Below, one piece after another: positions 3,565 to 34,583 of a DNA stretch of 45,075 nt. Origin of the DNA: Minisyncoccota bacterium (GTDB lineage Bacteria; Patescibacteriota; Minisyncoccia; Phycocordibacterales; UBA12079); NCBI GenBank assembly GCA_023135835.1, contig JAGLSI010000002.1, forward strand, positions 1 through 45,075, written 5' to 3'. The notes below the pieces were generated by a model. That model was not told the origin of the DNA, did no database searches, and worked only from the letters and a program-made list of their open reading frames with translations. Made by a program: the position numbers and the translations under genes. How positions within the stretch are numbered: position 1 is the stretch's first letter; each line of letters begins with the position of its first letter.

Positions 3565-3635
3565 TTATTTTTTATTGCTTTTTTTTTAACTAATGTTATT
3601 ATATTAATATAACCATGAAAAGGACCCGGTGGTAG

Positions 3636-4142
3636 TTAGTTTCCATTTAGGGGCCTTTTCTTTTTGTCTAGTTTCTTCCTTAAACTGTTTAAATAAGTAA
3701 TCTCATAGGGCAATCGTCTAACTAAATAAGAAAGCTTTTTTGATGGAGATATCACTTTAATCTCTTTATTTTCATCTTTAGCAAATTCTAATAAACAAGC
3801 AAAATCTCCATCACTAGATACTAAAACGAAATCACTAAAATCTTCTCTAAAAATGTCAGTTACTGCTTTTAAAACTAATTCTGCATCACAATTGCCTTTT
3901 ATTTTTCCTTTAGATTTTAAAGTTTTCTTAAAAATAATTTTATACCCGATTTCTTCTAAAGAACTATATAACTTTTTTTGTTCTTCAACAAACCCAATAA
4001 AAAAATAAATTTCTTCTGTTTTAAAATTTTCAAAAAGCCAGATGTAAAAGTTTTTATAATCAAACTTCCAATCAAGAGACTTTGACCCTCTATACAAATT
4101 TGCCGCGTCTATATAAACCCTGGTTTTATTATTAAATTTCAT
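3636..4142 (-). CDS. NYN (LabA-like, PIN-related) domain protein, paralog 1
   Basis: Motifs RVYIDAANL, GNCDAELVLKAV and VLVSSDGDFACLLEF. The ATG at 4142 lies 1 nt after the mazG-like stop. The track start at 4178 overlaps the upstream gene. Confidence 0.75.
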   Translation of the reverse strand: MKFNNKTRVYIDAANLYRGSKSLDWKFDYKNFYIWLFENFKTEEIYFFIGFVEEQKKLYSSLEEIGYKIIFKKTLKSKGKIKGNCDAELVLKAVTDIFREDFSDFVLVSSDGDFACLLEFAKDENKEIKVISPSKKLSYLVRRLPYEITYLNSLRKKLDKKKRPLNGN

Positions 4143-4143
4143 A

Positions 4144-4449
4144 TTATTTTTTATATCTATCCTTATCCCTATCGGCAACCTTGTCTATGCTTTTTTGAAC
4201 CGCTTCTCCCAAATCTATACCGTGAGAATTAGCAAAACAAATTAAAGTATAAATTATATCTCCCATCTCATCTTCAATATCTTTCTTTTTTTCTTCTAAT
4301 TTTTTCTTTTTAGGGCCGTAAATATGATTAACTTCTCTAGCAAACTCACCACATTCTTCAAACAACCTAGCTGTAATAGCCAATGGTTCCCAATAACCCC
4401 AACCTTTTTCTTCAAACCATTTATTAACTTGTTCTTGATATTTTTTCAT
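4144..4449 (-). CDS. Small MazG-like nucleoside triphosphate pyrophosphohydrolase
   Basis: 101 aa with EECGEFAREV...EDEMGDIIYTLICFANSHGIDL, the typical all-alpha NTP-PPase EEXXE/D layout. Confidence 0.8.
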   Translation of the reverse strand: MKKYQEQVNKWFEEKGWGYWEPLAITARLFEECGEFAREVNHIYGPKKKKLEEKKKDIEDEMGDIIYTLICFANSHGIDLGEAVQKSIDKVADRDKDRYKK

Positions 4450-29933: not shown

Positions 29934-30966
29934 TTATTATCTTTACTAATTCCTTCCCTAAGGTTTCAAGAGTACATTTTTGCATAAACTTATTATAACT
30001 ATTTTGGGCCAATTTTTCTCTTAATTCTCTATCTGCTTTTAATTTAAGGATAGCTTTAGCCAATTCTTGAGGATTTGCTGCAGGGACTAAATACAAATCA
30101 TCATCATTGAATAATTCCCTCACTGCAGGAGTATCAGCAGTAATTACAGGTTTCTTCATAGATACATATTCGTAAACTTTATGAGGAATAACTCTTTGAG
30201 TTTTATTTGTATCACCAAATATACCTAAACAAAGATCTGCTTGTGAAATATAATCAGGTAATTTTTCATAAAGAACATCATTTATGAAATTAACATTTAA
30301 AAAACCCTTCTTCTCATGAGTTCTCTTAATACGAGAACTTACAATATTGAATTGAATATCTTTATTGTCTTCAAGTAATCTTGCCGCCTCTAATATAAAA
30401 ATAACACCTTGCAATGGGACAATATTACCCTGATGCTGAATAATAAATTTAGTATTTTTTATAATAGGTTTTGGTTTAAAAAAACGAGTATCTGTTCCTA
30501 AAAGAACCTTAACAAATTTTTCTTTTTTTAAACCAAACTCTTGAACAAAATAATTGATATGTTCATCAGTATCTAAAATAACTTTATCCACTAATTTACA
30601 AGATAACCAATCTGTAAACCAAAAATATTTAGCTTTTAATCCTTCTTTTTTTGTATTTTTCCTATCAAAAACAGTTGAATCATAAATAGAAACAAGGGCA
30701 TCAAAAATTATTAATTTTCTAGTTAAAAATCTAGAAAGAATTGCAGCATGCCAACCCGGGAAAGCTACCAACAAAACATCGTATTCTTTGCGAATTTTCC
30801 AATGCTTTTTTATTAAATCAAAATATTTTATTACCCCTTTTAATTCAGTGCGACATTCTATAATATTGGCTCCATTCTCTTTTAATCCTAAAACAAGGGT
30901 TCTGCTACGAGAATAATTTGGGTCATATCTTCCAAAAAAACAAACTATTAATTCTTTATTTTTCAT
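29917..30966 (-). CDS. GT-B fold (GT1/GT4-like) glycosyltransferase
   Basis: HKVYEYVSMKKPVITADTPAVRELF is a C-terminal GT-B nucleotide-sugar-binding motif. Confidence 0.6.
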   Translation of the reverse strand: MKNKELIVCFFGRYDPNYSRSRTLVLGLKENGANIIECRTELKGVIKYFDLIKKHWKIRKEYDVLLVAFPGWHAAILSRFLTRKLIIFDALVSIYDSTVFDRKNTKKEGLKAKYFWFTDWLSCKLVDKVILDTDEHINYFVQEFGLKKEKFVKVLLGTDTRFFKPKPIIKNTKFIIQHQGNIVPLQGVIFILEAARLLEDNKDIQFNIVSSRIKRTHEKKGFLNVNFINDVLYEKLPDYISQADLCLGIFGDTNKTQRVIPHKVYEYVSMKKPVITADTPAVRELFNDDDLYLVPAANPQELAKAILKLKADRELREKLAQNSYNKFMQKCTLETLGKELVKIINEIQS

Positions 30967-32090
30967 TGTATTTTTTGATAAATAGAAATAACTTTTTTAA
31001 TTAAGTCTTCTAAATTATGATCTCTGCGAACAATTTCTCGCAATCTTTTTTCAATCTTTACCCTATCTCCATCAGATAGTTCTATTATTTTAGATACCTT
31101 TTTAGCCAAATCTTCACTATCTTTTGATTTAAAAAACAATTTATCCTTATACTCTTCAAAAACATTTCTTGAGGAATCATTACTTGAAATTGTTATTATC
31201 TCACAAGCCATTGCTTCTAAAATAACTTTATCTAAACTTCCTGTTTGACTCATGTTTACAAATAAATCAGCTTGATTTAAGTGATTAACAATATCTTTAT
31301 GAGAAACCGAACCCATAAAGTTTATATTTTCCTCCAAAGATTCATCTTTAATTTTTTGTTTTAATTTGCTTAAATAATCATCTTGATCAGGTAATCCTAT
31401 CTCTCCAATAATATCCAAATTAACATTTTGATTTTTTATTTTTAAAATTTTAATAGCATTAATCAGAGTTTCATAATCTTTAATAGGAGAAATTCTTCCC
31501 ACAGTAATCATTTTAAATTCTTCATTAGCTTTACGAACCTGCCTACCGGCAGGCAGGCTTTTTGACTTTATGAACTTTTGACTCGGTATCCCATGCCCTG
31601 TTATATTCAATTTTTTAGTTTTTAAACGAAAAGATTCTCTTGTTCCAGAAAAAATAGTATGCGTTAATTTTTCAGCTACTCTCAACTTAAAATCAACAGA
31701 TTTATGCATATACCAAAGCCCTATCTTTTTTCCCATTATTCGCCAAAATAAACCTCCTAAAATAACATATTCGGGGTTCATGTGTACAAACACATTGTCA
31801 TAATTATTTTTTTCAGACCAAATATATCGGTAAAAATTAAAGAGATACTTTTTCTTACTTTCAACTTTATGGACCTGCCTGCCGGCAGGCAGGCTTTCTG
31901 ACATTTGACTAGAAAGTTCTTTTCCCAAGGAAAGAACTTTCACATTTCTAGGTAAATCATATTCCCCAACACTCAAAGCAATCACTGTTACCTTTTCACA
32001 ATGTTTGGCAAATTCAATAACCCAGTCATGAAAAAAACCAAGCACATCATCATTTTTATCTATTTTTTGTGTAAGAATTAATAATTTCAT
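30963..32090 (-). CDS. GT4-like glycosyltransferase carrying two in-frame palindromic-element insertions
   Basis: VGRISPIKD...NMSQTGSLDKVILEAMACEIITIS. The ATG is at 32090 (MKLLILTQ). The peptide SLPAGRQV is encoded twice, by the palindromes at 31538 and 31874. Confidence 0.7.
   Translation of the reverse strand: MKLLILTQKIDKNDDVLGFFHDWVIEFAKHCEKVTVIALSVGEYDLPRNVKVLSLGKELSSQMSESLPAGRQVHKVESKKKYLFNFYRYIWSEKNNYDNVFVHMNPEYVILGGLFWRIMGKKIGLWYMHKSVDFKLRVAEKLTHTIFSGTRESFRLKTKKLNITGHGIPSQKFIKSKSLPAGRQVRKANEEFKMITVGRISPIKDYETLINAIKILKIKNQNVNLDIIGEIGLPDQDDYLSKLKQKIKDESLEENINFMGSVSHKDIVNHLNQADLFVNMSQTGSLDKVILEAMACEIITISSNDSSRNVFEEYKDKLFFKSKDSEDLAKKVSKIIELSDGDRVKIEKRLREIVRRDHNLEDLIKKVISIYQKIQ
31538..31557. 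repeat. GC-rich 20-bp palindromic element (cctgcctaccggcaggcagg, one mismatch)
   Basis: Read directly from the sequence. It lies inside the GT4 ORF and has conserved flanks of about 9 nt shared with the copy at 31874. Confidence 0.9.
31874..31893. repeat. GC-rich 20-bp perfect palindromic element (cctgcctgccggcaggcagg)
   Basis: Read directly from the sequence. It lies 336 nt (112 codons) from the other copy, in the same reading frame. Confidence 0.9.
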
Positions 32091-32146
32091 TGACTTTTTT
32101 TTTAGATAATATATTATTAAAGTAATCACCAACGGAAAAGATCACC

Positions 32147-32668
32147 CTACAAGGTACCGTCCTTGTGGGGTCTTTTCTTTTTATATGAAAGTAAATTCTC
32201 TAAATCATTCATATATCTCAAATATTTACGAAATATTTTAAATTTAAGTAAGGCCGAAAACTTTAAACGATTAGGAATCATTACTACTTTTAATTTATTT
32301 TGTTTAAGTAAGTAGGAAACTAAACAATGAAAATCTCCATCTCCAATAACTATCAAAGCTTTATCAAAATTAGAATATTCAATCATTGATTGTAAAACTA
32401 ACTCAGCGTCAACATTTCCTTTCATAGTTCCGTCTTTATATTCTAAAGTAGGCTTAAAGATACAAATAAAGCCTACTTCTTGTAAAAATTTATATAATTC
32501 ATCATTTCCTTTTACATACCCTATAAACAAGAAAGCTTTATTTACCTTATATTTTTCTTTTAAATATATTCTAAATCGTGCAAAATCTAATTTCCAACCT
32601 AATGCTAAAATACTTAAATTTAAATTTTGACTATCTATAAATGCATAATTATTTTCTTTCTTCTCCAT
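32147..32668 (-). CDS. NYN (LabA-like, PIN-related) domain protein, paralog 2
   Basis: YAFIDSQNL, GNVDAELVLQSM and LIVIGDGDFHCLVSYL. The C-terminus KKKRPHKDG parallels KKKRPLNG of paralog 1. The ATG at 32668 lies 2 nt after the AbrB-like stop. Confidence 0.75.
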   Translation of the reverse strand: MEKKENNYAFIDSQNLNLSILALGWKLDFARFRIYLKEKYKVNKAFLFIGYVKGNDELYKFLQEVGFICIFKPTLEYKDGTMKGNVDAELVLQSMIEYSNFDKALIVIGDGDFHCLVSYLLKQNKLKVVMIPNRLKFSALLKFKIFRKYLRYMNDLENLLSYKKKRPHKDGTL

Positions 32669-32670
32669 AT

Positions 32671-32850
32671 TTATTTTTTCCAATCTTTTATAATTATCCT
32701 TTCTTTTTTATCATCAACTTCTACCTCAAGTTTTTGAAATTTTTGCCAACCTAAACCTCTAATTACCTCAATAGGCAAAGTAACAAAATAAGTAGGTCCA
32801 TTTTTTGATAATTTTCTTATATTTCTATCTTCTAATTTTCTTCTAGCCAT
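32671..32850 (-). CDS. AbrB/MazE/SpoVT-type small DNA-binding protein (59 aa), not in ORF track
   Basis: Hand translation: MARRKLEDRNIRKLSKNGPTYFVTLPIEVIRGLGWQKFQKLEVEVDDKKERIIIKDWKK. The YFVTLPIEVIRGLGW...L.V.V pattern is the looped-hinge-helix motif. Confidence 0.6.
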   Translation of the reverse strand: MARRKLEDRNIRKLSKNGPTYFVTLPIEVIRGLGWQKFQKLEVEVDDKKERIIIKDWKK

Positions 32851-32865
32851 ATTTAATATATTACC

Positions 32866-32901
32866 TGTACAATTAACTGTACAGTTAATTATACAGTAAA
32901 T
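32866..32901. promoter_or_regulatory. Three tandem 12-mers upstream of the AbrB-like gene (putative operator)
   Basis: tgtacaattaac tgtacagttaat tatacagtaaat starts 16 nt upstream of the ATG at 32850. It contains the palindromic core ctgtacag. Confidence 0.4.
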
Positions 32902-32952
32902 TTGATAAAAAATGTCAAATATACTAATTTCAAACTACCAACAAACAAGTTT

Positions 32953-34095
32953 TCAATCATTTATCGTCTTTAACCAACCTTCTTTAATCAAAGCTAAATT
33001 TTCATTTCTACTTTGTGGAATTTTTTGCATAAAATCGTTATATGCTTTTTCTTTTAATTCTTCTATCAATTCAGGATGTTGTTGAATATTTTTTATACTT
33101 TGGGCAATACATTTTTCATTTCCAACCTCACACAATAAAGCATTGTTTCCACTTAAAACCTCTCCAACTATTCCAACTTTTGTAGTTAAGATTGGACATT
33201 TAGAAACAATTGCTTCAACCAAAGAAAGCCCGTAACCCTCATAATTAGAAGTTGAAAGAAACAAATCCGCAGTTTTATAATACGAAATAGGGTCATCAGT
33301 CCATTTTTTAAAAATTACCTTTTCCTCCAAACCTTTTCTTCTAGCCAACCTTCTTAAACTTTTTCTCTGTGAGCCTTCCCCTACTATTATTAATCCAGTC
33401 TTAGGAAAAATATCAACAACATCTTTCATAGCAGAAATAGCTAAAGAAATATTTTTCTCACTCTCTAAACGACACATCATTAAAATTATAAATTTAAATT
33501 GTAAATATTTTTCTTTTAAAGAAAAATTTGGAGTTGAAACTTGAATCAAATTTGAACTTGTAAAAATAGGAACTATTGTAATTGGTTTTTTCTGAAGTCT
33601 TTTTGGTAAAGATTCTTGTATTCTTTTAGAAACAACTCTTATATGATCTGCTCTTGATAGAAGAAACTTGGCTATTCTAGATCTAAAAAAATTAGCCAGT
33701 GAGTGCTTAATAAAATATTTATTAAATAAATCTGTATGAATCTGTAATTCTAATTTAGTTTTTATTTTTCTAGACATGACCCAAGCAATAAAACCTGTCT
33801 CATACGCATCTTGGGCAGTAATTAAATCTATCTTTTTTTTATCTTTAGATTTAAATTCTTTAATATTTAAAGCAATTTTTATAGCATCAAAAATATATAA
33901 AAACTTATTTACCGAATTAGTCGGATAAACTGTACATTTTTCACTTATTCTCACTTTTTTATAAGATTCTGATTCAAGATTTAAAACAACCACACACAAA
34001 TTATCAACTAACTCAGCATAATCTAACAACCTTTGTCTTACCAAGCTTTTTTCTTCAAATATTTTTTTATCTGTACTTAATATTAAGATGTTCAT
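32953..34095 (-). CDS. GT4 family glycosyltransferase
   Basis: CRLESEKN...LSTSNYEGYGLSLVEAIVSKCPILTTKVGIVGEVL. The ATG at 34095 lies just after the RelE-like stop. Confidence 0.8.
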   Translation of the reverse strand: MNILILSTDKKIFEEKSLVRQRLLDYAELVDNLCVVVLNLESESYKKVRISEKCTVYPTNSVNKFLYIFDAIKIALNIKEFKSKDKKKIDLITAQDAYETGFIAWVMSRKIKTKLELQIHTDLFNKYFIKHSLANFFRSRIAKFLLSRADHIRVVSKRIQESLPKRLQKKPITIVPIFTSSNLIQVSTPNFSLKEKYLQFKFIILMMCRLESEKNISLAISAMKDVVDIFPKTGLIIVGEGSQRKSLRRLARRKGLEEKVIFKKWTDDPISYYKTADLFLSTSNYEGYGLSLVEAIVSKCPILTTKVGIVGEVLSGNNALLCEVGNEKCIAQSIKNIQQHPELIEELKEKAYNDFMQKIPQSRNENLALIKEGWLKTIND

Positions 34096-34099
34096 TTTT

Positions 34100-34360
34100 T
34101 TAATATATATCATGTTTACCAATTGAATAAAACCTTATGTTTTTGTTTTGATCAAAGTCAAAAATAATTCTATATTCAAAATCAATTGAAAAAGTATAAA
34201 AGTTTTTAAATCGTCTGTGTAACTTATGAGTTTTAAGTAATGGAGTAAAATAATCTTTTATAAATATCTTTTCTTTTTTTAATACTTTTTGCTGAATGGA
34301 AATAGGTAACTTTTTAAACTTTTTTAAAAAACTATTTTTATAATAAATTTTAACTTTCAT
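34100..34360 (-). CDS. RelE/ParE-family type II toxin
   Basis: 86 aa with KTHKLHRRFKNFYTFSIDFEYRIIFDF...IRFYSIGKHDIY, typical of RelE/StbE-type mRNA interferases. It overlaps the antitoxin gene by 11 nt. Confidence 0.75.
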   Translation of the reverse strand: MKVKIYYKNSFLKKFKKLPISIQQKVLKKEKIFIKDYFTPLLKTHKLHRRFKNFYTFSIDFEYRIIFDFDQNKNIRFYSIGKHDIY

Positions 34361-34583
34361 ATTTTTTAAGAGCTTCTTCCATAGAATTAGCTTTTATAAT
34401 ACCCTCATTATTTTCAAATTCTTTACGCATTTCCATTAATTCTTTATATAAAGTGTCTTCTTTCCATTGTCTAATTAAATTACGAAAAAACTCGCTAGAT
34501 GAAGCATAAGAACCTTTTTTAATTTCTTTTTTTATATCTTTAGCCATCTCTTTTGGCAAGGAAATAGTCATCGTTGTTCTCAT
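34350..34583 (-). CDS. Ribbon-helix-helix (ParD/CopG-like) antitoxin
   Basis: MTISLPKEMAKDIKKEI..GSYASSSEFFRNLIRQW is an RHH motif. The gene sits directly upstream of the toxin. Confidence 0.75.
   Translation of the reverse strand: MRTTMTISLPKEMAKDIKKEIKKGSYASSSEFFRNLIRQWKEDTLYKELMEMRKEFENNEGIIKANSMEEALKKYES

What the first reader, a model, noticed from the sequence alone, without database searches (positions are those of the whole stretch)
32147..32901. AbrB-like / NYN-domain two-gene module with upstream tandem operator-like repeats: candidate VapBC-like toxin-antitoxin of a new composition
An unannotated 59-aa AbrB/MazE/SpoVT-type ORF (32850-32671) ends 2 nt before the ATG of a NYN-domain protein. 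NYN is a PIN-related nuclease fold, and classical VapBC pairs are AbrB-type antitoxin plus PIN toxin.

Three tandem 12-mers (tgtacaattaac tgtacagttaat tatacagtaaat) lie 16 nt upstream, as expected for autoregulated TA operators. The module interrupts a run of glycosyltransferase genes. The paralogous NYN gene at 3636-4142 has a MazG partner instead, which suggests partner swapping around a conserved effector.
Basis: partly seen in the sequence, partly recalled or inferred. Interest (0 to 1): 0.62.

Follow-up and report, generated by a model that had tools for sequence, protein, structure and literature searches.

The report
AbrB regulator beside NYN–small-RNA cassette
The small AbrB-type gene and the NYN nuclease gene are both real, but they are two independent add-on elements that sit side by side between two sugar-transferase genes, and the nuclease's constant partner is a ~58-base antisense RNA gene, not the AbrB protein.

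Summary
A conserved 59-aa AbrB/MazE-type ORF (32671-32850, minus strand) ends 2 nt before an intact NYN nuclease gene (32147-32668). Three 12-bp repeats lie just upstream of the ORF.

The AbrB-NYN toxin-antitoxin reading is not borne out.
- At this same inter-glycosyltransferase junction in sister genomes, the AbrB unit and the nuclease cassette are present or absent independently (Fisher p = 1.0).
- One sister genome has the orthologous NYN at the same place and no AbrB homolog anywhere.
- The AbrB protein is domain only, with no toxin-binding tail.
- Its operator repeats travel with AbrB whatever lies downstream: NYN of two lineages, MazF/PemK, GIY-YIG, RhuM-Fic, a glycosyltransferase, or nothing.
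- A 12-nt periodicity upstream of the start codon is a family-wide trait. The AbrB protein is therefore most likely an autorepressor with a portable promoter.

The partner that NYN keeps across Patescibacteria is a convergent small-RNA gene, at 32125-32182 on the plus strand in the window. It has its own TTGAC-N16/17-TATAAT promoter, a covarying hairpin and a U-tract, and it overlaps the NYN stop codon. All three NYN genes of this genome carry one. It matches no Rfam family. No RNA-seq data were available.

The parts
32913..32918 (-). TTGACA, candidate -35 of the AbrB promoter, with a 19-nt spacer to the -10
   Evidence: Read from the sequence. The spacer is longer than the 16-18 nt that the consensus scan accepts.
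32888..32895 (-). TGTATAAT, an extended -10 element that coincides with the first repeat unit
   Evidence: Sequence. The same TGTATAAT is kept in front of AbrB homologs in L012, L104, L105, L107, L112, L156 and L157.
32866..32901 (-). Three tandem 12-bp repeats with palindromic TGTACA/TATACA cores; candidate AbrB operators covering the -10 and the early transcribed region
   Evidence: Unique in the window, 0.00 expected by chance. A near-identical array precedes AbrB orthologs whatever gene follows. 12-nt autocorrelation is 0.447 against 0.285 in controls across 67 distinct homolog upstream regions, and 12 is the best shift in 32 of 67 against 7% of controls.
32671..32850 (-). 59-aa AbrB/MazE/SpoVT-fold DNA-binding protein; inferred autorepressor
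   Evidence: PF04014 29.6 bits. Weak matches to the B. subtilis AbrB N-domain in the PDB (E 0.03). 18 homolog clusters. Predicted beta-beta-alpha-beta-beta topology over residues 13-56, pLDDT 66.
32147..32668 (-). 173-aa LabA-like NYN (PIN-like) nuclease, probably active
   Evidence: PF01936 43.5 bits. Match to PDB 2QIP, E 4e-9. Acidic residues invariant. Homologs in 177 of 401 sampled Patescibacteria genomes.
32125..32182 (+). Candidate ~58-nt antisense small RNA: 5' AUCACCAACGG, then a long hairpin, then a U-tract. It overlaps the last 36 nt of the NYN gene, stop codon included.
   Evidence: Model R2 hit, 64.4 bits (this copy was in the training set). A + strand terminator-like site lies at 32144-32171. 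Homologous element at the 3' end of 34 of the 36 NYN loci whose 3' tails were aligned. Covariation in the 30 copies found by model R1.
32090..32117 (+). Promoter of the small RNA: TTGACT, 16 nt, TATTAT. The -35 element overlaps the start codon of the downstream glycosyltransferase on the other strand.
   Evidence: Best promoter-like hit of the region, 10 of 12 matches. TTGAC-N16/17-TATAAT sits at the same distance in most homologous loci, including orphan copies.
30963..32090 (-). Conserved glycosyltransferase (MKLLILTQK...) that marks the right side of the junction
   Evidence: Orthologs at 47-68% identity in same-genus and same-family genomes were used to find the orthologous junction.
32953..34122 (-). 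Upstream GT4 glycosyltransferase that marks the left side of the junction
   Evidence: ORF list and Pfam labels on an identical contig.
3636..4142 (-). Paralogous NYN gene (36% identity), 1 nt after a MazG-like gene
   Evidence: PF01936 66.3 bits. Alignment.
3609..3665 (+). Convergent hairpin RNA candidate at the 3' end of the paralogous NYN gene
   Evidence: R2 hit, 47.3 bits (in the training set). Sequence shown.

Best explanation
The flagged stretch holds two separate accessory units packed into one junction between two conserved glycosyltransferase genes.

**Unit 1: AbrB gene with its promoter and operators.** This unit is about 285 bp. It contains an extended -10 promoter (TGTATAAT), three 12-bp operators and a 59-aa AbrB-fold gene. 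The protein most likely forms the usual interlocked dimer or tetramer. It would bind the tandem repeats that cover its own -10 and early transcribed region, and so repress its own promoter. That promoter also drives whatever lies downstream, which here is NYN and probably the glycosyltransferase operon. DNA binding and repression are inferred.

**Unit 2: NYN nuclease cassette.** This cassette is widespread in Patescibacteria. An intact LabA-like NYN gene starts 1-2 nt after whichever gene lies upstream. A convergent ~58-nt small-RNA gene, with its own sigma-70 promoter and intrinsic terminator, overlaps the NYN stop codon. The RNA most likely restrains NYN, either by pairing with the 3' end of its mRNA or by binding the protein. 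That would make NYN plus the small RNA the toxin-antitoxin-like pair, not AbrB plus NYN. This step is inferred.

**Link between the two units.** In this genome the only link is transcriptional and positional.
For: **Independent assortment at the orthologous junction**

| State at the junction | Genomes or loci |
|---|---|
| Neither unit | G411, G406 |
| Small RNA only | G402 |
| NYN-A plus small RNA, no AbrB | G408 |
| NYN-B plus small RNA, no AbrB | G403 |
| PemK, no AbrB | G404, G405 |
| AbrB directly before the glycosyltransferase | G409, L112 |
| AbrB plus NYN-A | window, L105, L157, L119 |
| AbrB plus NYN-B | G413 |
| AbrB plus GIY-YIG | G418 |
| AbrB plus PemK | L107 |

- Fisher p = 1.0.
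- G408 has no AbrB homolog at all.

**Operators follow AbrB, not the downstream gene**
- The operator array and TGTATAAT stay with AbrB, and the operator type changes with the AbrB subtype, not with the gene downstream.
- A 12-nt periodicity is family-wide.
- The AbrB domain spans residues 15-55 of 59, which leaves no toxin-binding tail.

**NYN and the small RNA**
- The element lies at the 3' end of 34 of the 36 NYN loci whose tails were aligned.
- In the 30 copies found by model R1, 92% of cells are paired and 10 of 11 pairs show compensatory changes. The covariation score is 0.537 against 0.219 in shuffles, reached by 0 of 500 shuffles.
- G-U pairs number 9 on the RNA strand, against 2 A-C.
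- Of 66 R1 hits in 56 of 401 genomes, about 47 are convergent with a listed NYN hit.
- R2 finds exactly three hits in the 572-kb genome, one at each NYN 3' end.
- NYN abuts the upstream gene by 2 nt in G408 as well, where that gene is a glycosyltransferase.
Against: - In the close AbrB subfamily (66-83% identity) the slot right after AbrB is often filled by toxin-type genes (NYN in five lineages, PemK/MazF, RhuM-Fic). These are the toxin classes that AbrB-type antitoxins are known to pair with, and the start codons are tightly coupled to the AbrB stop. A functional tie beyond position is therefore not excluded.
- No transcript data exist. Only four DNA runs from cold-seep metagenomes hold the sequence, so neither the small RNA nor AbrB-NYN co-transcription is shown.
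- Model R1 does not detect the window's own RNA variant. Its membership rests on alignment and on R2, which was trained on it.
- About 13 small-RNA copies are orphans, and four genomes have the RNA but no detectable NYN. The RNA may therefore have a role of its own.
- The junction sample is small, 15-16 loci.
Confidence: 0.68

Rival explanations
1. AbrB and NYN form a true type II, VapBC-like toxin-antitoxin pair. The AbrB protein would bind and neutralise the NYN nuclease and autoregulate the operon through the 12-bp operators.
For: - The order is antitoxin first, with a 2-nt gap or a 1-4-nt overlap, in five lineages and with two different NYN lineages.
- Close AbrB relatives precede a PemK/MazF toxin and a Fic/Doc protein.
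- The operator repeats lie in the promoter.
- The NYN active site is intact.
Against: - NYN orthologs sit at the same locus without AbrB in G408 and G403. G408 has no AbrB homolog in its genome.
- AbrB precedes plain glycosyltransferase genes or stands alone in many loci.
- The protein has no toxin-binding extension.
- AbrB proteins 66-80% identical would have to neutralise unrelated folds.
- None of the other 36 NYN loci from across the phylum has an AbrB gene upstream.
- Fisher p = 1.0 at the junction.
Confidence: 0.1
2. AbrB is a dedicated transcriptional silencer of incoming nuclease or toxin cassettes. It would be a regulator recruited to keep such genes at a low level, so it is functionally tied to them without binding them.
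For: - In the close subfamily, most loci (7 of 9 at the orthologous junction, plus the RhuM-Fic loci elsewhere) have a nuclease or toxin-type gene directly after AbrB, under its promoter and operators.
- The AbrB gene is patchy even within one genus, like an accessory gene.
Against: - The same cassettes sit at the same junction without AbrB.
- More distant AbrB homologs are mostly solo or precede housekeeping genes such as glmS or sugar nucleotidyltransferase genes.
Confidence: 0.12
3. NYN is an ordinary RNA-processing enzyme, and the conserved 3' hairpin is only a shared terminator and promoter region with no RNA product that has a function. Nothing here is toxin-antitoxin-like.
For: - The LabA-like NYN family (COG1432) is widespread, and gene context has linked it to tRNA/rRNA processing (PMC5499597).
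- NYN sits among housekeeping genes in many loci.
- There are no expression data.
Against: - The conserved 5' AUCAC(G/C)A segment and the loop lie outside the stem and outside the NYN coding region, which a plain terminator does not need.
- Orphan copies keep their own consensus promoter.
- NYN is multi-copy, its copy number varies, and it is often split or pseudogenised. It also moves between contexts.
Confidence: 0.1

Closest known systems
VapBC type II toxin-antitoxin systems (AbrB-type VapB plus PIN-domain VapC)
   Same: A small AbrB-fold gene comes first and is tightly coupled to a PIN-like (NYN) nuclease gene. Repeats lie in the promoter.
   Different: The pair is not inherited as a unit. 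The AbrB protein lacks a C-terminal toxin-binding region. NYN occurs at the same locus without it. NYN is not a VapC-type PIN domain.
Bacillus subtilis AbrB (N-terminal swapped-hairpin DNA-binding domain) and other stand-alone AbrB/SpoVT regulators
   Same: It matches the same Pfam family, and its best PDB sequence matches are AbrB N-domains. It consists of little more than that domain and is probably autoregulated.
   Different: It is much shorter than full-length AbrB, with no C-terminal multimerisation domain. It has a conserved basic N-terminal arm (MARRKLEDRNIRKL). Its operators are well-defined 12-bp tandem repeats, whereas AbrB sites are known to be loosely defined (own knowledge).
Type I toxin-antitoxin loci with convergent 3' overlap (B. 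subtilis bsrG/SR4, txpA/RatA; PMC3834814, PMC6562991)
   Same: A small antisense RNA with its own promoter and terminator overlaps the 3' end of the protein gene.
   Different: The protein is a 173-aa soluble nuclease, not a small hydrophobic peptide. The RNA has sequence conserved beyond what cis-pairing needs. Toxicity has not been tested.
LabA-like NYN proteins, COG1432 / PF01936 (PMC5499597)
   Same: The domain family, size and acidic active-site residues are the same. The closest solved structure is 2QIP.
   Different: No partner small RNA is mentioned for this family in the one review read (PMC5499597), and the RNA matches no Rfam 15 family.
MazEF/PemIK
   Same: The small ORF matches the Pfam family named after MazE. 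One 76%-identical relative directly precedes a PemK/MazF gene.
   Different: In the window the downstream gene is NYN. In sister genomes, PemK sits at this junction without any AbrB gene.

Membership tests
Type II VapBC-like toxin-antitoxin pair | Antitoxin and toxin genes are inherited and lost together as a unit | tested here: not met
   All four presence/absence combinations occur at the orthologous junction. Fisher p = 1.0. None of the other 36 NYN loci has AbrB upstream.
Type II VapBC-like toxin-antitoxin pair | The antitoxin has a DNA-binding domain plus a separate toxin-binding region | tested here: not met
   PF04014 covers residues 15-55 of 59. Predicted strands and helix span residues 13-56. 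Only a 14-aa basic N-terminal arm remains, and it is nearly invariant whatever gene follows.
Type II VapBC-like toxin-antitoxin pair | The toxin is a PIN-fold nuclease with conserved acidic residues | tested here: met
   NYN (PIN-like) hit at 43.5 bits. D12, D87, D110 and D112 are invariant.
Type II VapBC-like toxin-antitoxin pair | The toxin arrests growth and the antitoxin neutralises it | not testable with these tools
   Needs expression assays.
AbrB/MazE/SpoVT swapped-hairpin DNA-binding proteins (PF04014) | Profile match above the curated cut-off | tested here: met
   29.6 bits against a cut-off of 24.7.
AbrB/MazE/SpoVT swapped-hairpin DNA-binding proteins (PF04014) | Beta-beta-alpha-beta-beta topology that forms an interlocked dimer | tested here: inconclusive
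   The monomer model has the right order of elements but only pLDDT 66 and pTM 0.34. A dimer was not modelled.
AbrB/MazE/SpoVT swapped-hairpin DNA-binding proteins (PF04014) | Binds DNA at its own promoter (autoregulation) | tested here: inconclusive
   Conserved 12-bp repeats that co-vary with the protein subtype overlap the -10 element. Binding itself was not tested.
NYN / LabA-like nucleases (PF01936, COG1432) | Profile match and four conserved acidic residues | tested here: met
Type I toxin-antitoxin with 3'-overlapping antisense RNA | A convergent small-RNA gene overlaps the 3' end of the toxin gene | tested here: met
   Promoter, covarying hairpin and U-tract on the opposite strand, overlapping the stop codon. 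This rests on sequence only; no transcript has been seen.
Type I toxin-antitoxin with 3'-overlapping antisense RNA | The toxin is a small hydrophobic membrane peptide | tested here: not met
   The protein is a 173-aa soluble NYN nuclease.
Type III toxin-antitoxin (ToxIN-like) | The antitoxin RNA is a tandem repeat array upstream of the toxin on the same strand | tested here: not met
   A single hairpin RNA lies downstream on the opposite strand.

The most novel reading that the evidence does not exclude
The NYN nuclease and its convergent ~58-nt RNA form an undescribed class of RNA-controlled nuclease module, toxin-antitoxin-like or defence-like, that moves as a cassette through Patescibacteria. 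MazF/PemK cassettes may be built in a similar way. The 285-bp AbrB unit would be a second kind of small portable element: a self-repressing promoter-regulator cassette that lands directly in front of start codons and puts such nuclease cassettes and host operons under its control.
Probability: 0.3. Interest if true: 0.75.

Novelty: new variant of a known kind. Interest (0 to 1): 0.5.

Why it matters
**Adjacency can mislead.** A small AbrB gene 2 nt in front of a PIN-like nuclease looks exactly like a toxin-antitoxin operon. Comparing the orthologous site in sister genomes shows two independent elements instead.

**What the locus offers:**
- It documents one inter-gene junction in ultra-small bacteria where small nuclease genes (NYN of two lineages, MazF/PemK, GIY-YIG, PDDEXK) are swapped in and out.
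- It adds one more well-anchored case of the NYN plus antisense-RNA cassette. If the RNA is the antidote, this would be a toxin-antitoxin architecture not found in the literature or Rfam searched here.
- It gives a compact AbrB-operator pair (59 aa and three 12-bp sites) that is easy to test. It could be one of the few defined transcription-factor and operator pairs for these poorly understood organisms.

Tried and rejected
- **First conclusion had to be revised.** After I took NYN to be a one-off insertion unique to this genome. Searches showed AbrB-NYN in four more lineages, and searches showed PemK and RhuM-Fic after AbrB. That briefly revived the toxin-antitoxin reading. The empty-site comparison then showed independent assortment.
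- **Rfam.** A scan of 31800-33100 gave only chance-level hits.
- **Model R1.** It was built from the main RNA subgroup and did not find the window's own variant in the genome (best hit 14.6 bits, elsewhere). A second model, R2, was needed.
- **RNAalifold on MAFFT alignments.** It recovered only part of the hairpin because indels misplace the inner stem.
- **Integron attC site.** I considered this for the NYN 3' element and dropped it, because the sequence lacks the expected core sites (judged by eye).
- **Tiny peptide gene.** I considered this for the small RNA and dropped it, because the AUG-started frame is not conserved: 11 codons in L060, 5 in L057.
- **Sequencing runs.** Only four DNA metagenome runs were found and no RNA.
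- **PADLOC.** It gave only a weak NYN hit (22.5 bits) and nothing for AbrB.
- **Structure model.** The AbrB monomer model was too uncertain for a fold search, so none was run.
- **Literature.** Three searches (NYN with toxin-antitoxin terms; NYN, antisense and Patescibacteria; AbrB and candidate phyla radiation) found no description of an AbrB-NYN toxin-antitoxin pair, of the NYN-associated RNA, or of AbrB in these bacteria.
Full report
**1. The observation**

The window is contig C12 of a 572-kb, 35-contig genome of a Patescibacteria-type organism. Close relatives carry Campbellbacteria labels.

On the minus strand, a 59-aa ORF (32671-32850) matches PF04014 (MazE_antitoxin/SpoVT-AbrB) above the curated cut-off: 29.6 against 24.7 bits, residues 15-55. 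Its nearest solved relatives by sequence are the N-terminal DNA-binding domains of B. subtilis AbrB (E about 0.03).

Two bases after its stop codon a 173-aa ORF begins (32147-32668). It matches PF01936 NYN at 43.5 bits and PDB entry 2QIP at E 4e-9. The acidic residues D12, D87, D110 and D112, and N15, are invariant in an alignment with six relatives.

The pattern TRTACA-N6-TRTACA-N6-TRTACA occurs once in the window, with none expected in shuffles. Read on the gene's strand, the first unit is TGTATAAT, an extended -10 element. A TTGACA lies 19 nt upstream of it.

The small ORF is a real gene: 18 homolog clusters share 57-83% identity with it.

**2. Is AbrB-NYN a conserved pair? The phylum-wide view**

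I searched a sample of 400 Patescibacteria genomes.
- The AbrB ORF has homologs in 25 genomes. Among the 30 loci returned, only the window's own has NYN downstream. The others are solo or precede unrelated genes.
- NYN has homologs in 177 of 401 genomes. It is often present in several copies, with split or pseudogenised copies and tandem duplicates.
- Among 37 NYN loci, only the window's own has an AbrB gene upstream.
- The genome itself has three NYN genes. One follows AbrB, one follows a MazG-like gene, and one has no same-strand upstream partner.

**3. The close AbrB subfamily complicates the picture**

Looking up where the closest AbrB homologs are encoded showed more variety.

| AbrB homolog (identity to the window's) | Gene directly downstream |
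|---|---|
| P0005 (76%), G416 (66%), metagenome locus L119 (71%) | NYN of the window's lineage (80% identity in L105) |
| P0003 / G413 (80%) | A different NYN lineage (43% identical to the window's) |
| P0006 (76%) | PemK/MazF toxin, then PDDEXK_3 and GIY-YIG genes |
| P0007 / P0008 (72-74%) | RhuM-Fic/Doc protein |
| G418 (69%) | 80-aa GIY-YIG gene |
| P0004 / G409 and P0011 | The glycosyltransferase itself |
| P0010, P0014 | None (solo) |

On its own this resembles an antitoxin with exchangeable toxins. I took the toxin-antitoxin reading seriously again at this point.

**4. The empty-site test**

The glycosyltransferase downstream of the module (MKLLILTQK..., window 30963-32090) is conserved. 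I used it to find the same junction in other genomes of the genus and family.

| Genome | What lies between the two glycosyltransferase genes |
|---|---|
| G411, G406 | Nothing |
| G402 | Only the small RNA described in section 6 |
| G408 | The orthologous NYN plus the RNA, 2 nt after the upstream gene, no AbrB |
| G403 | The second NYN lineage plus the RNA, no AbrB |
| G404, G405 | PemK, no AbrB |

G408 is 98% complete and has no AbrB homolog anywhere. The other same-genus genomes have only distant AbrB homologs, located elsewhere.

Counting distinct loci gives this table:

| | Nuclease cassette present | Nuclease cassette absent |
|---|---|---|
| AbrB present | 7 | 2 |
| AbrB absent | 4 (5 with G402) | 2 |

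Fisher p = 1.0. The sample is small. Even so, the proposed toxin persists at the same place without the proposed antitoxin, which is the outcome a cognate pair should not give.

NYN abuts whatever gene is upstream by about 2 nt, and the junction sequence TAAATATG is nearly the same whether that gene is AbrB or a glycosyltransferase. The tight spacing is therefore a property of the NYN cassette, not of an AbrB-NYN operon.

**5. What the AbrB unit is**

The repeats belong to AbrB.
- The array ACTGTATAATTAACTGTACAGTTAAT(T/G)(A/T)TACAG is nearly identical in front of AbrB orthologs followed by NYN-A, NYN-B, PemK or a glycosyltransferase.
- A second AbrB subtype has TGTATAAT followed by TACGTA repeats.
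- A third has a long palindrome. The operator type follows the protein subtype.
- Across 67 distinct upstream regions, the 12-nt autocorrelation is 0.447 against 0.285 in control stretches. Twelve is the best shift in 32 of 67 regions, against 7% of controls.
- The protein is essentially the domain alone plus a nearly invariant basic N-terminal arm, MARRKLEDRNIRKL.

I infer an autorepressor whose operators cover its -10 element and the start of its transcript. DNA binding was not tested. Relative to G408, the window has about 285 extra bases: promoter, operators and ORF.

**6. What NYN's real partner is**

The 3' ends of NYN genes from unrelated loci share about 95 nt of conserved DNA. Read on the strand opposite to NYN, the element has these parts in order:
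- TTGAC(A), 16-17 nt, then a TATAAT-like box
- about 6 nt of spacer
- AUCAC(G/C)A...
- a hairpin
- a U-tract

The stop codon of NYN falls at different places within the hairpin. The conserved C-terminal peptide (KKKRPHKDxTL) is therefore partly the translation of this element.

Evidence that this is an RNA gene:
- In 30 copies found with covariance model R1, 92% of cells are paired and 10 of 11 pairs show compensatory changes. The covariation score is 0.537 against 0.219 in shuffles, with no shuffle reaching it. Slid controls give 0.11-0.19. That alignment is fitted to the model, which favours the structure.
- G-U pairs number 9 on this strand, against 2 A-C. This agrees with the promoter and U-tract in assigning the RNA to the strand opposite NYN.
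- R1 finds 66 copies in 56 of 401 genomes. About 47 are convergent with a listed NYN hit.
- About 13 copies are orphans that keep their own promoter, some beside NYN remnants.

In the window, the consensus scans had already placed their best promoter-like site (32090-32117, plus strand) and a terminator-like site (32144-32171, plus strand) exactly there. Model R2 finds three hits in the whole genome, one at each NYN 3' end: 32125-32182, 3609-3665 and one on C13. Those three were training sequences. The informative part is that nothing else in 572 kb matches.

Rfam has no such family. No RNA runs hold the locus, so the RNA is predicted, not observed.

Earlier notes of this scan describe the same NYN-RNA cassette in other genomes, and a MazF-RNA analogue. 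I reached the RNA before reading them, and they are not independent proof.

**7. Mechanism**

Shown by sequence comparison:
- There are two separable units.
- The AbrB operators are conserved.
- The NYN active site is intact.
- The small-RNA gene has promoter, structure and terminator signals.

Inferred:
- AbrB represses its own promoter, and with it NYN and probably the glycosyltransferase genes downstream.
- The small RNA limits NYN, either by pairing with the 3' end of its mRNA, as in bsrG/SR4 (PMC3834814), or by binding the protein.
- The conserved single-stranded 5' segment and the loop suggest recognition in trans. This favours protein binding or a further target, but nothing here tests it.

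**8. Comparison and verdict**

The locus looks like VapBC and fails two of its defining tests: inheritance as a unit, and a toxin-binding region in the antitoxin.
- The AbrB gene is a new member of the AbrB/SpoVT family.
- NYN is a LabA-like COG1432 protein, a group for which a 2017 classification reported no functional studies of nuclease activity (PMC5499597).
- The NYN-RNA pairing resembles type I loci with 3' overlap. It differs in having a nuclease instead of a peptide.

My odds:
- About 0.68 for two independent units with a transcriptional link only.
- About 0.10 for a true AbrB-NYN toxin-antitoxin pair.
- About 0.12 for AbrB as a recruited silencer of such cassettes.
- About 0.10 for a purely housekeeping NYN with no functional RNA.

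Noticed in passing
window 34100-34583 (-): A second small module lies one gene upstream. A 77-aa ribbon-helix-helix protein (PF01402, 30.6 bits) overlaps an 86-aa RelE/ParE-like protein, which scores below the cut-offs (TIGR02385 22.7 against 27.9 bits). It is a probable type II toxin-antitoxin pair inserted between two glycosyltransferase genes.
   Followed up: partly
window 31529-31902, inside the GT gene 30963-32090 (-): The peptide LPAGRQV occurs twice in the glycosyltransferase, encoded by a GC-rich palindrome. A similar palindrome (cctgcctgaggcaggcg) sits in the intergenic region of the sister locus L171. Earlier scan note e1-4400192 treats it as a small insertion element.
   Followed up: no
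L171 (G404), L173 (G405), L107: At the same junction, some relatives carry a PemK/MazF gene instead of NYN. In L107 and L173 it is followed by a hairpin, and on the opposite strand by a TTGAC...TATATT promoter and (in L107) an AUCACC segment, like the NYN small-RNA gene. L171 has a palindromic insert and only a degenerate remnant at that position. MazF cassettes may use a related antisense RNA.
   Followed up: partly
L175 (G402): An orphan copy of the window-type small RNA lies between the two glycosyltransferase genes with no NYN gene. It looks like a clean example of the nuclease being lost and the RNA kept.
   Followed up: partly
window 32666-32673 and L174: The junction TAAATATG (stop codon, AT, then the NYN start codon) is almost the same whether the upstream gene is AbrB (window) or a glycosyltransferase (G408). 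The left edge of the NYN cassette may bring the stop codon for the upstream ORF.
   Followed up: no
G137:C4, G229:C1, G244:C2, L054, L078: Some loci have two small-RNA copies in tandem, 60-130 nt apart, next to one NYN gene or next to none.
   Followed up: no
window 3636-4449 (-): The MazG-like gene and the paralogous NYN gene lie between pheS and pheT, splitting the usual pheST pair. This NYN also has a convergent hairpin RNA candidate at 3609-3665.
   Followed up: partly
L119 and L110: The AbrB subtype with SYH(L/V)TLPIE has a different operator: a roughly 37-bp palindrome (ATCTATGGCATTATC TATATA GATAATGCCATAGAT) instead of 12-bp direct repeats.
   Followed up: no
L018 (P0010 locus): A solo AbrB homolog lies next to AbiEii and AAA_14/DUF4143 genes, which is a defence-island-like neighbourhood.
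   Followed up: no
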